Positions 18,646 through 35,945 of a stretch of 64,000 bases of DNA are shown here, piece after piece. Numbering within the stretch: position 1 is the first letter of the stretch; the number at the start of each line of letters is the position of its first letter. The notes beneath the pieces are model-generated. The model was not told where the DNA came from, did no database searches, and saw only the letters and a list, made by a program, of their open reading frames with translations. The DNA is from an uncultured virus (IMG/VR IMGVR_UViG_3300017758_000001) (taxonomy: Duplodnaviria > Heunggongvirae > Uroviricota > Caudoviricetes). The stretch lies in IMG/VR virus record IMGVR_UViG_3300017758_000001; one strand, 5' to 3'. The translations under genes and the position numbers were made by a program.

Positions 18646-19641
18646 TTAAACATCTTCTTTGATATCAAAGTCTCCGTCTATACCTAACTGTCTCTTCCAA
18701 TATTCTGCATGTTCCGATTTGTATGCCTCTAAAGACTTCTTTTCTTCTGCAGAATCTTTACCACTCAAAAAACCGTGTGCTGTTATAATGATTCTACCAT
18801 CTTCATAACCTAAACCGTTTACGTGGTTTTTCATAATCGAAATCTTAGTTCTCGTAGCGAACTTAACTTTTCTCTTGTCTTTGACTGCTGAGATAGGATT
18901 AGTTCCTGCGTTTTTTTGATTTCCGAATCTGAATACTAAAGTTGAATTCAACCAAATTGATTCTCCACCCTTTGCCTTTATTTTAGGTTGACTAAATGGA
19001 TTATCAGGTAATTCTACCCATGGTTGGTTAACTATGACCAAAGTATTTGTATACTTAGATTCAACTCGTCTTGAACCAGATATTCTCTGATTTAAACCCA
19101 TTCCAATTTTATCGGCTAACGTTGATGCGTTATGTTGTTTACCACCTTTACCATCAAAGGTCATTTTACATGGTACTGAACCAACCGAATCCCATAGAAA
19201 AAGTAGATCGTATTCGATCTCACCTTTTTGTTGTGCATCAATTAATTCATTTATGTAATCAGTGATTTGTTCAATATATTGGAATTGGTTGTTAAACAGA
19301 AAAAATCCGTCATATTCTATTTCACCTGTAGTCTCATCAACCACTTCTTCAATTTCGAGACCCATCAACTTTGCGTGAGGGAAATCCCATTTTTGTTCAG
19401 TGATTACGAAGACAGGTAAAATTCCTTTCTTTTGTGCATCGACCGCAGTTTTAACAAGTGCAGTGGTTTTTCCTGTATCTGAATGTCCTAAAAACATGTT
19501 GATATGTCCCATAGCGGGACCTGGTAAACCTGTCGCGTCTAAGAAAGAGTCTCCTAAGTCAAGAAATTTATCAGACTTAAACTTTGCCTGTTTCGAAAAC
19601 TTTGACTTAATACTTTTAAAATCTTTTTTCTTTATTGCCAT
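18646..19641 (-). CDS. uvsX: RecA/UvsX-like recombinase
   Basis: Walker A GHSDTGKTT, WDSVGS, IVNQ, KGGES, KNH. Confidence 0.88.
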   Translation of the reverse strand: MAIKKKDFKSIKSKFSKQAKFKSDKFLDLGDSFLDATGLPGPAMGHINMFLGHSDTGKTTALVKTAVDAQKKGILPVFVITEQKWDFPHAKLMGLEIEEVVDETTGEIEYDGFFLFNNQFQYIEQITDYINELIDAQQKGEIEYDLLFLWDSVGSVPCKMTFDGKGGKQHNASTLADKIGMGLNQRISGSRRVESKYTNTLVIVNQPWVELPDNPFSQPKIKAKGGESIWLNSTLVFRFGNQKNAGTNPISAVKDKRKVKFATRTKISIMKNHVNGLGYEDGRIIITAHGFLSGKDSAEEKKSLEAYKSEHAEYWKRQLGIDGDFDIKEDV

Positions 19642-19652
19642 ATTATATTTTT

Positions 19653-19746
19653 AAAAAAGGGTCCCCCGTTCCTCATAGGGCCGACAATAGGGTCAAACAT
19701 GTCGGATGCAGCTCCACCAATACTGTGAGGTGGGGGACCCAAGGTC
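19653..19746. ncRNA. GC-rich multi-stem structured RNA element between ssb and recA (strand unresolved; also terminator-like on minus)
   Basis: GGGTCCCCC(19659-67)/GGGGGACCC(19732-40), CCTCA(19671-75)/TGAGG(19726-30), CCGACA(19681-86)/TGTCGG(19700-05). The A6 run at 19653-58 gives a U6 tail on the minus strand. Confidence 0.65.
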
Positions 19747-19751
19747 TACTT

Positions 19752-20612
19752 TTAAAATGGTAGTTCGTCAGATGTTTCTTGTTTACTTTGTGGATCTTCA
19801 GTAACAACTGTTTTTTCAACAGGTGCAGTTACTGTCGTTCCTCCAAAATCACTTTCTCCTTCTGCCTTAGAAACATATTTCTTTGCGTCTCTGTCCCATT
19901 GTGGAACTTCACCCATTGCAACCATTTCTAAATATTCATGTGGTTTTACGGAATACACATCTCTCCACGTATCAGGATGATTCGCCCATTCATTTGAAAC
20001 TTCTGAATCATTATGAAGTGGTGATATGTCTTCTTGAATAATTGAATTAATACTTGTGTATTCTCTACCGTTTGGTGCTTTAGTTAATGTTAGAGATAAA
20101 ATTAAATCTCTTCCTTCTACCAAATCAGTAATATTACCCTTACTTTTAATAATAGGGATAATTTTGTCGAGAGGTCCTTCACCTTTGTAGTTGTGTTTGA
20201 ATCTCCAAAATTTAGGTCCATCTTCTTCTTTGTCTCGGTCGATAACTTTAACAATATAGAATTTTCTCGCTCTGTAATTTCTCGCGTTGATTTTATCCGA
20301 TTCGGTTCCTGTTGCTAATAGTGCCTTTTGAACCTCATTAAGTGGTGATGGATCACCATCTTGAGACGGATCGTATAATTTCATCCATCTCCCATCTACT
20401 TGGATTTCGTGGAATGAAACTTCTTTAAAAGGACTCATTCCATCTGCAGCAGGGAGAATTCTAATTCTCTTTTGCCCACCTGGCGTTCCTTTAGGTAAAA
20501 TAGTTGTGAAGTACTTTTTTAGTCGGTCTTCATTCGACATCGAGTTGCCACTTGTGGCTCTTTGCGTATTTTTCTCATATTGAGAAAGAATCGCATCAAT
20601 TGAATTTGTCAT
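19752..20612 (-). CDS. Single-stranded DNA-binding protein (T4 gp32-like)
   Basis: IRILP, FYIVKVIDR..E.GPKFWRF, EGRDL, acidic C-terminus ending DELPF. Confidence 0.85.
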   Translation of the reverse strand: MTNSIDAILSQYEKNTQRATSGNSMSNEDRLKKYFTTILPKGTPGGQKRIRILPAADGMSPFKEVSFHEIQVDGRWMKLYDPSQDGDPSPLNEVQKALLATGTESDKINARNYRARKFYIVKVIDRDKEEDGPKFWRFKHNYKGEGPLDKIIPIIKSKGNITDLVEGRDLILSLTLTKAPNGREYTSINSIIQEDISPLHNDSEVSNEWANHPDTWRDVYSVKPHEYLEMVAMGEVPQWDRDAKKYVSKAEGESDFGGTTVTAPVEKTVVTEDPQSKQETSDELPF

Positions 20613-20648
20613 AATTATTATTTTTTGTGTTATTTAAATTATATTAAA

Positions 20649-20677
20649 ATGGTACACAAAAAAGTTTCAAAAGTCAA
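20649..20677 (-). promoter_or_regulatory. Host-sigma-type promoter for the ssb-recA-exo-helicase-nrdBA block
   Basis: Minus strand TTGACT-N17-TACCAT. Confidence 0.7.
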
Positions 20678-20716
20678 CCCCCTTGAACAATAAAATTTTG
20701 ATGTTTATCTGGAAAA

Positions 20717-21714: not shown

Positions 21715-21918
21715 TTAGTCGCTTAATAATTGTCTTCCATCTTCGGTTATGTATCGTTTGTTAATTCTCTCAACGATACCATCTTTAGAACGGATTACGT
21801 AACATTCACCAGTATTCATGTCACAAACTTCTTGTTCAGTTCCGTCCTCATTTAAATTTTTTACTGACTTTTTTCCTAAGAAGTTATCAAGTGTTGAACC
21901 TATTTTTAAATTATCCAT
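21715..21918 (-). CDS. Small late protein
   Basis: 67 aa from MDNLK, TATTTAT motif at 21935-21941, C-terminal YITEDGRQLL. Confidence 0.55.
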   Translation of the reverse strand: MDNLKIGSTLDNFLGKKSVKNLNEDGTEQEVCDMNTGECYVIRSKDGIVERINKRYITEDGRQLLSD

Positions 21919-21968
21919 AATTGTTCTTTTTAATATAAATATCACCAAATTAGTAATTATCCATGAAA

Positions 21969-35456: not shown

Positions 35457-35945
35457 TTAATATACTTGGATACATCTATCCATTCTCAGAGAACATGTGA
35501 TAGTTGCCAATGCGTCATTGTTGTAATCTAATTCATTGAAGTTTAAGTCAGTAATGAATGTTCCTTGTAATATCCATTTCTCAACTACTACTCCCGTAGG
35601 ATCCAACATTTCTAATTCAATGTCTTTCTTATACCCCGCAGCGTAACCCATTCTACCTGTTACGGACTCTGCGTGTAATCTGAACCATTCCATCAATGCT
35701 TGTGATGCTGAAGGTCCAATTGGGTCTTTAAATGTGACTCTTAATTCATTCCATACGAATCTACCTGCAACATAAGTTGAAGTGTTCAGGAATGGAATCT
35801 CAGTCGAGTTGATTTTTGCACTTGGTCTTGCTGCCGAAGTAACAAACCATTCGTTAATACCTAATGAAGAGGGAAACCTAACGATAAATCGGTTAACTCT
35901 TTTTGGTTCATAAGGAACGGGCATTTTCATTAATAAATCCGCCAT
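35457..35945 (-). CDS. Tail tube protein (T4 gp19-like)
   Basis: EPKRVNRF, YVAGRFVWNEL, LMEWF, YKKDIELEMLDPTG..VEKWIL; adjacent to the sheath gene. Confidence 0.9.
   Translation of the reverse strand: MADLLMKMPVPYEPKRVNRFIVRFPSSLGINEWFVTSAARPSAKINSTEIPFLNTSTYVAGRFVWNELRVTFKDPIGPSASQALMEWFRLHAESVTGRMGYAAGYKKDIELEMLDPTGVVVEKWILQGTFITDLNFNELDYNNDALATITCSLRMDRCIQVY

What the first reader, a model, noticed from the sequence alone, without database searches (positions are those of the whole stretch)
19653..19751. GC-rich multi-stem RNA with alternative pairings between ssb and recA
Seen: an 82-nt GC-rich island in an AT-rich genome. It has a 9-bp outer stem, a CCTCA/TGAGG stem and a CCGACA/TGTCGG hairpin. 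On the sense (minus) strand it forms a three-way junction with an extra CAGU/GCUG hairpin and ends in U6, 11 nt before the recA ATG. Its 5' arm GGGUC has two rival partners: GACCC in the inner loop (19690-94) and GACC just upstream (19743-46), as expected of a switch or pseudoknot. On the plus strand two stems extend through G-U pairs (CCUCAUAG/CUGUGAGG), so the functional strand is unresolved. It is far more elaborate than the simple terminators elsewhere in the window, and I do not recognise it as a known riboswitch or ribozyme. Inference: an attenuator controlling read-through into recA-helicase-nrdBA (perhaps sensing SSB or a nucleotide), or an independent ncRNA.
Basis: partly seen in the sequence, partly recalled or inferred. 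Interest (0 to 1): 0.72.

Follow-up and report, generated by a model that had tools for sequence, protein, structure and literature searches.

The report
Mobile phage RNA inside ssb terminator
The GC-rich fold between the ssb and recA genes is a terminator-like hairpin that encloses a trimmed copy of a roughly 55-base RNA module, not found in Rfam and carried about once per genome by many giant aquatic phages; it likely acts as a small RNA of its own and may grip the CCA end of tRNAs.

Summary
The island is real, but it is two things. (1) The outer stem plus U-run is a terminator-like hairpin; 71 of 78 ssb relatives have one here. (2) Inside sits a conserved module: hairpin Pa, a near-invariant UGGUGG with a bulged U, hairpin Pb, then pyrimidines. 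It matched no Rfam family. Both hairpins covary, and G-U pairs fix the sense strand. All 7 near-complete records carry it; 6 of them encode bS21. It usually lies 4-11 nt before a terminator, behind 17 different gene families, sometimes facing a convergent gene, and twice inside tRNA arrays. One ssb clade holds it inside the ssb terminator; the window's copy has lost Pa. Neighbour-independence argues against a recA riboswitch. Best guess: a trans-acting 3'-end RNA whose UGGU binds tRNA/tmRNA NCCA ends, as a T-box bulge does (about 30%). Function is untested. The scan's index held no look-alike sequence.

The parts
19752..20612 (-). gp32-like single-stranded DNA-binding protein gene; the element lies in its 3' UTR
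   Evidence: Pfam gp32 E 3.8e-12; PHROG ssb
19732..19740 (-). 5' arm of the outer, terminator-like stem
   Evidence: Pairs with 19659-19667 at P about 1.0; a 9-13 bp outer stem of three different sequence types in all 14 clade copies folded
19726..19730 (-). 5' strand of the stem extension (CCUCA); 19728-19733 (CCCACC) can also pair with the core in nascent RNA
   Evidence: CCUC/GAGG becomes CCCC/GGGG in L724; absent in L002/L005-type copies
19720..19725 (-). 6-nt linker where relatives have an A-rich linker plus hairpin Pa; Pa is missing in the window and L001
   Evidence: alignment A2; 12 of 13 module-bearing ssb loci keep Pa; the window and L001 are nested inside the clade
19714..19719 (-). 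near-invariant core UGGUGG (5' strand of helix Pc, with bulged U4)
   Evidence: each position kept in 38-40 of 40 copies found through proteins or whole-record scans; RNAalifold pairs it with the pyrimidines
19706..19713 (-). variable one-sided bulge between Pc and Pb
   Evidence: length varies widely among copies and does not keep a reading frame
19681..19705 (-). hairpin Pb (CCGACA / 13-nt loop / UGUCGG); loop sequence and length not conserved
   Evidence: 4 of 5 pairs with double changes on A5; 2 of 5 on the MAFFT seed
19677..19680 (-). pyrimidine run (3' strand of Pc)
   Evidence: alternates C/U against fixed G (G-C or G-U)
19671..19675 (-). 3' strand of the stem extension (UGAGG)
19653..19667 (-). 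3' arm of the outer stem and U6 tract: predicted intrinsic terminator end
   Evidence: sequence; a hairpin plus T-run at this site in 71 of 78 ssb relatives
18646..19641 (-). RecA/UvsX-like gene, first of a run with a 5'-3' exonuclease, DnaB-like helicase and nrdB/nrdA

Best explanation
The element is a likely leaky intrinsic terminator at the end of the ssb gene whose loop holds a copy, lacking hairpin Pa, of a conserved RNA module that likely works in trans and would bind the free NCCA end of tRNA or tmRNA through its UGGU. Shown: the module's fold, its strand, about one copy per genome, its place at a 3' end, and its independence from neighbouring genes. Inferred: the outer stem stops most transcripts after ssb, so SSB exceeds RecA and the replication enzymes; the module is made as the 3' end of whichever transcript it closes, or is cut out of a tRNA array. 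Speculative: UGGU pairs with ACCA and the short duplex stacks on Pa, as the T-box bulge stacks on helix A1, so uncharged tRNA ends are held during infection. In the window Pa is gone, so this copy may bind weakly or not at all. My odds: terminator plus conserved module about 0.85; trans-acting about 0.6; tRNA/tmRNA end as the partner about 0.3.
For: Covariation: 98.4% of cells paired and 5 of 16 pairs with double changes on a MAFFT seed of 23; RNAalifold finds the same fold; 95.8% and 11 of 16 on 96 model-aligned rows, slid controls 37-56%. Copy number: 7 of 7 records at least 90% complete match, six once and G028 twice; full scans of G011, G022 and 400 of 425 kb of G028 give one canonical copy each. 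Context: 77 of 80 non-ssb copies have a hairpin plus T-run 4-11 nt downstream; 17 upstream and 24 downstream ORF families among 82 copies; two copies lie in tRNA arrays, one 12 nt before a tmRNA; some follow a promoter-like sequence with no nearby ORF (L369, L549). Carriers are rich in translation genes: bS21 12 of 21, tmRNA 9 of 34, SmpB 9 of 34. UGGU directly follows Pa with no spacer in nearly all copies (one extra base in L002 and L193). A T-box review says UGGN is always adjacent to helix A1 (PMC7583486, passages). A minimal variant in G028 keeps only Pa, UGGU and a small hairpin before a terminator.
Against: No binding or expression data exist. RNAalifold pairs G2, G3, G5 and G6 inside the module, so UGGU is not a free bulge. 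The core does not track the genome's own tmRNA end beyond UGGUGG(A) in 10 genomes. Only 34 of 243 phage tRNA calls end in the CCA-CCA that would pair all six bases; 169 have A73. The base of Pb is also sequence-conserved (G-C in 86, A-U in 83 of 96 rows), which fits a protein or ligand site at least as well. The T-box ACC, the A1/A2 bulge topology and stem I are absent. The window's copy lacks Pa and scores poorly with both models (E 0.12 in its genome; no match at E 0.05). The U-runs of several clade copies are short (AUUUU). G000 has no tmRNA, SmpB, bS21 or tRNA in the 41% held.
Confidence: 0.3

Rival explanations
1. The module is a single-copy binding site or decoy for a protein (host RNA polymerase or a Nus factor, a ribosomal protein, or a phage RNA-binding protein) that reads the bulged-U helix and the base of Pb.
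For: Fixed G's against C/U partners, a bulged U and a conserved Pb base next to a freely covarying Pa are typical of a protein-read surface (general knowledge). One copy per genome and free location.
Against: No protein gene stays beside it. No candidate protein was identified. It does not explain the exact complement to ACCA next to a helix.
Confidence: 0.27
2. In this phage the element is only a terminator: the module still works in relatives, but the window's Pa-less copy is decaying.
For: Pa is lost in the window and L001, nested inside a clade that keeps it. The family fold (-35.8) is not the lowest-energy fold (-36.9 kcal/mol), and Pc has P 0.05.
Against: UGGUGGAG, Pb and the pyrimidine run are kept intact while the linker and Pb loop changed completely. 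No other copy exists in the 136 kb held, though 59% of the genome is missing.
Confidence: 0.13
3. An attenuator: CCAC(C) of the terminator 5' arm pairs with the core in nascent RNA and delays the terminator; a ligand on the core frees the arm and stops transcription before recA.
For: In RNAs cut before the 3' arm, this pairing has P of at least 0.5 in 12 of 14 clade copies. Variants L724 and L725 could keep it through G-U.
Against: With a longer 5' flank and another cut point only 6 of the 16 sequences that gave a value reach 0.5. CCAC is explained by the outer stem in most copies. The outer stem wins at P about 1 once made. Most copies lie before, not inside, their terminator, and 13 of 82 have no same-strand gene to control.
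Confidence: 0.1
4. A cis element for the upstream mRNA: a 3' stabiliser, or a structure that aids ribosome release at the stop codon.
For: Most copies start within about 10 nt of a stop codon, many at exactly 3-4 nt.
Against: Such a job would be expected at many genes, not once per genome, and not in tRNA arrays. Close packing is normal in these genomes. Stop-to-module distances range up to 621 nt.
Confidence: 0.1
5. A single-stranded DNA signal (priming or origin site) or a small self-cleaving ribozyme.
For: Single copy and free position fit an origin. A place 2 nt after a tRNA (L096) resembles tRNA-linked ribozymes (recalled).
Against: No GC-skew turn at the module in G000, G022 or G028, and only a plateau in G011. 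Always co-oriented with a terminator. No Rfam ribozyme match, and few conserved unpaired bases.
Confidence: 0.08

Closest known systems
T-box antiterminator / discriminator domain (PMC7583486, passages read)
   Same: A UGGN tetranucleotide set directly against a helix, a second helix with G-U wobbles, about 60 nt, next to an intrinsic terminator.
   Different: No stem I or specifier, no ACC. The helix before UGGU is a closed hairpin, not A1. The core pairs inside the module. It does not overlap the terminator in most copies and lies in 3' UTRs, not leaders of amino-acid genes.
Intrinsic (Rho-independent) terminator between phage ssb and downstream genes (general knowledge)
   Same: GC-rich stem and U-run; the same site holds a simple hairpin in 58 relatives without the module.
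   Different: The loop is about 60 nt and holds a separately conserved module.
3'-UTR-derived small RNAs that share a terminator with an mRNA (class recalled, not tested)
   Same: Conserved core plus terminator at the end of unrelated mRNAs; sometimes an own promoter-like sequence.
   Different: No mRNA target or processing site was found; the seed-like core is partly paired.
Candidate DNAVirus_1121 of Fremin et al. 2023 (PMC10690425; supplement table rows read)
   Same: 55 nt, marine, 22 sequences, 12 of them within 25 bp upstream of a RecA gene.
   Different: Its sequence could not be read (alignment archives too large), so identity is open. It is an uncharacterised candidate, flagged as no terminator.
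PeSL cassettes of T4-type phages (PMC2839356, search listing only)
   Same: A mobile non-coding stem-loop unit between variable genes.
   Different: PeSLs are multi-copy promoter cassettes (recalled); this module is single-copy and sits at 3' ends.

Membership tests
Any Rfam 15 family | Score at the family's gathering threshold | tested here: not met
   Window: 0 hits. Module sites in 38 loci: no hit on the module at E up to 1 (18 loci) or at gathering (20 loci). Short-region scans give only weak hits far below threshold.
T-box riboswitch | UGGN directly adjacent to a helix | tested here: met
   No spacer between Pa and UGGU in nearly all copies; not met in the window, which lacks Pa
T-box riboswitch | 7-nt UGGN-ACC bulge between helices A1 and A2 | tested here: not met
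   UGGU is followed by GG, and the preceding strand pairs upstream in Pa
T-box riboswitch | Stem I with specifier codon upstream | tested here: not met
   The module starts within a few nt of a stop codon; no Rfam T-box hit
T-box riboswitch | Antiterminator and terminator share a strand, upstream of amino-acid genes | tested here: not met
   The terminator starts 4-11 nt after the module in 77 of 80 copies; downstream genes are unrelated
T-box riboswitch | Binds the uncharged tRNA 3' end | not testable with these tools
   Needs a binding assay
Intrinsic terminator | GC-rich stem directly followed by a U-run | tested here: met
   9 bp plus U6; the consensus scan misses it because its loop exceeds 8 nt
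Intrinsic terminator | Transcript 3' ends in the U-run | tested here: inconclusive
   Only assembled contigs at low depth were available, and no listed piece spans the element
Metabolite riboswitch / attenuator | Consistent downstream gene function | tested here: not met
   24 downstream families; 13 of 82 convergent
Metabolite riboswitch / attenuator | Conserved mutually exclusive pairings | tested here: inconclusive
Self-cleaving ribozymes | Catalytic-core consensus; self-cleavage | tested here: inconclusive
   No Rfam ribozyme match; cleavage cannot be tested here
Small peptide / recoding signal | Reading frame kept across the conserved blocks | tested here: not met
   Distance modulo 3 splits 35/28/22 among 85 copies

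The most novel reading that the evidence does not exclude
Giant Bacteroidota phages encode a stand-alone, T-box-like tRNA-end-binding RNA that holds uncharged tRNA or tmRNA ends and so damps the host's stringent response or trans-translation; one marine lineage has moved it into the ssb terminator, where it couples tRNA charging to read-through into the recA-helicase-ribonucleotide reductase genes.
Probability: 0.12. Interest if true: 0.9.

Novelty: new variant of a known kind. Interest (0 to 1): 0.6.

Why it matters
A short RNA kept once per genome across phages as distant as those with unalignable ssb genes or 54-60% GC, while all its neighbours change, behaves like a core gene. These phages already carry bS21, tmRNA, SmpB, GOLLD and many tRNAs, so the module may be an unseen part of how they take over translation. 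At about 55 nt with a defined fold and a six-base core it is cheap to test. If it binds tRNA ends it would be a T-box-like device outside Gram-positive leaders and acting in trans. It also shows an RNA module moving into the loop of an existing terminator.

Tried and rejected
Rfam at gathering and E-value thresholds: nothing on the element. Antisense reading as a tRNA-like end (T-arm, acceptor strand, ACCA): rejected, because G-U pairs in all three helices and GAAA/UUCG loops fall on the sense strand. Peptide reading: frame not kept. Pairing with the genome's own tmRNA: no co-variation in 10 genomes. Origin by GC skew: no turn at the module. Bacterial copies: a pattern scan of GTDB gave 50 matches that look like chance in coding DNA; L479 (model E 0.002) reads as part of a long coding region and was dropped. 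Model R2 found none in 121 genomes of G061's phylum, but only 45 candidates per genome were scored, so this is weak. Cultured phages: one distant ssb match and no module match. RNA runs: only contigs at low depth, no listed piece spans the element, and depths cannot rank genes. Locus-B marker genes were not found in G000; synteny with G011 ends about 9 kb short of G011's module, so whether this lineage has a second copy is open. Pair counts on A2 used structure strings out of register: all, and helices 1 and 3, are ignored. In one search my 3' index was off by one; replace its pair tables. Most GC-rich pattern matches were chance and were left out by a GC filter (0.45), except L091 and L096; L083, L158 and L479 were dropped. 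Paper searches listed no description of this motif. The alignment supplements of PMC10690425 (files 1-2) and PMC5737381 could not be read and may contain it.

Full report
Observation. It is the most GC-rich 82-mer of the window (60% against 34%) and folds better than shuffles on either strand. It lies between a gp32-like ssb and a UvsX/RecA-like gene, ahead of an exonuclease, a DnaB-like helicase and nrdB/nrdA. The contig is a 136-kb phage fragment, 41% complete. The CAGU/GCUG arm has P 0.12, and the GACCC and GACC rivals have P about 0 in the full RNA. The arm and the inner GACCC occur only in the window and its 94% sister L001.

The outer stem. Two were cut short. Of the other 78, 71 have a hairpin and a T-run after ssb by my rule; five more have a clear hairpin with a shorter run, and two carry a 600-nt insertion. 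So a terminator-like hairpin is the norm here. That it terminates, and leakily, is inference: recA starts 11 nt later with no room for a promoter, and no 3'-end data were available.

The inner module. Thirteen of the 80 loci have a larger loop with a shared core. Pattern scans found the same core elsewhere in AT-rich phage contigs, and a search with a neighbouring protein found it without the pattern in 72 of 80 loci. Some of the misses are limits of my descriptor or of the flank (L339 is matched). The consensus is: UU, hairpin Pa (3-8 bp), UGGUGG, a variable one-sided bulge, hairpin Pb, three or four pyrimidines, AAA. On a MAFFT seed of 23 copies 98.4% of cells pair and 5 of 16 pairs change on both sides; RNAalifold gives the same fold unprompted. 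On 96 model-aligned rows the figures are 95.8% and 11 of 16, against 37-56% for slid controls; that alignment leans to the model and includes ten rows with E above 0.01. Pa covaries freely and Pb partly. Pc (GG-U-GG with the pyrimidines) has only one double-changed cell; its G's stay fixed while the partners alternate C/U. Among 40 copies found through proteins or whole-record scans, each base of UGGUGG is kept in 38-40; these rows were still scored by the model. G-U pairs in all three helices would be A-C on the other strand, which fixes the sense strand.

Distribution. All 7 records at least 90% complete match model R2, six once and G028 twice (at most 138 candidates scored per record). Full scans of G011, G022 and 400 of 425 kb of G028 confirm one canonical copy each. 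The second G028 hit is a minimal form: Pa, UGGU, a small hairpin, a terminator. Of 80 distinct non-ssb copies, 77 have a terminator-like hairpin 4-11 nt downstream. Among 82 copies the upstream ORFs fall into 17 families and the downstream ORFs into 24, and 13 face a convergent ORF (a few of my ORF calls may be spurious). Two copies lie in tRNA arrays of phages with 54% and 60% GC, one between tRNA-Leu and tmRNA. Carriers encode bS21 in 12 of 21 records, tmRNA in 9 of 34 and SmpB in 9 of 34. This fits the bS21 myoviruses of Chen et al. 2022, whose hosts were predicted to be Bacteroidetes (PMC9723584, passages; its main text has no occurrence of tmRNA, non-coding or terminator). I did not compare genomes with that set, so host and clade are inferred.

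History. Thirteen records that hold both ssb and a module elsewhere have no module after ssb, and G001 is a fourteenth. On an ssb tree of 83 distinct proteins the 16 module-bearing ones are one side of a branch (100/97; 1 change against 15 for shuffles). With midpoint rooting this suggests one move into the ssb terminator. The window and L001 are nested inside and lack Pa, so that loss is derived. Energy cannot choose between them; homology favours the family fold. The window's copy scores weakly with the models; its membership rests on the alignment to its clade.

Mechanism. One copy per genome with changing neighbours points to a trans-acting RNA made as a 3' end, not a switch for recA. For the partner I commit to tRNA or tmRNA 3' ends at about 0.3. 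UGGU is the complement of ACCA, it abuts a helix with no spacer as the T-box UGGN does (PMC7583486, passages), the minimal variant keeps just this, and the carriers invest heavily in translation. Against: the core is predicted to pair internally, it does not track the genome's own tmRNA, only 34 of 243 phage tRNA calls could pair all six bases, the other T-box features are missing, and the conserved Pb base suits a protein site. A protein partner is nearly as likely (0.27). A nascent pairing of the terminator's 5' arm with the core is favoured in 12 of 14 copies under one truncation and in 6 of 16 under another, so a clade-specific attenuator stays possible but weak (0.1).

Comparison and novelty. 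It is not a member of any Rfam family or of the T-boxes; it may work like a T-box discriminator in part. Seven paper searches listed no description. Fremin et al. 2023 list a 55-nt marine candidate upstream of RecA (DNAVirus_1121) whose sequence I could not read, and the supplement of Weinberg et al. 2017 was also closed. The motif, or the ssb-clade form, may therefore already stand as an unnamed candidate. The scan's index had no look-alike sequence; one note describes a structured RNA after gp32 in other marine phages, which I did not test.

Verdict. A real, conserved, apparently undescribed phage RNA module inside an ordinary-looking terminator; function untested. Interest 0.6.

Noticed in passing
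   Followed up: no
G028:C1:239127-239168 (L621): Minimal second copy: Pa, UGGU, a 4-bp hairpin and a terminator.
   Followed up: partly
L115, L129, L133, L353, L567, L574: GOLLD RNA lies about 0.6-1.5 kb upstream of the module on the same strand.
   Followed up: no
L579:402-834 (G015); also G011, G012, G035: A phage smpB gene about 0.7-1.1 kb upstream of the module; 9 of 34 records carry SmpB and 9 carry tmRNA, not always together.
   Followed up: partly
L017 and L019, after ssb: A 600-nt insertion with a short Cys-rich ORF replaces the hairpin between ssb and recA; possibly a homing endonuclease.
   Followed up: no
L593:6077-6149 (G001); L496:2295-2372; L601:7025-7100: tRNA calls with stop anticodons (CUA, UUA), possible suppressor tRNAs.
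   Followed up: no
L624:6900-7270 (G033): Around the module, in a 31-tRNA array, lie further GC-rich non-tRNA stretches with T-loop-like ends; possible unannotated RNAs.
   Followed up: no
window 20613-20716, 21900-21968 and many related loci: A TATTTAT(A) word precedes many genes shortly after terminators; a candidate late promoter of this phage group.
   Followed up: no
G000:C1 about 35790-35850 (outside the window): A long hairpin followed by TGGTTGG and a terminator: same layout as the module but no model match.
   Followed up: no
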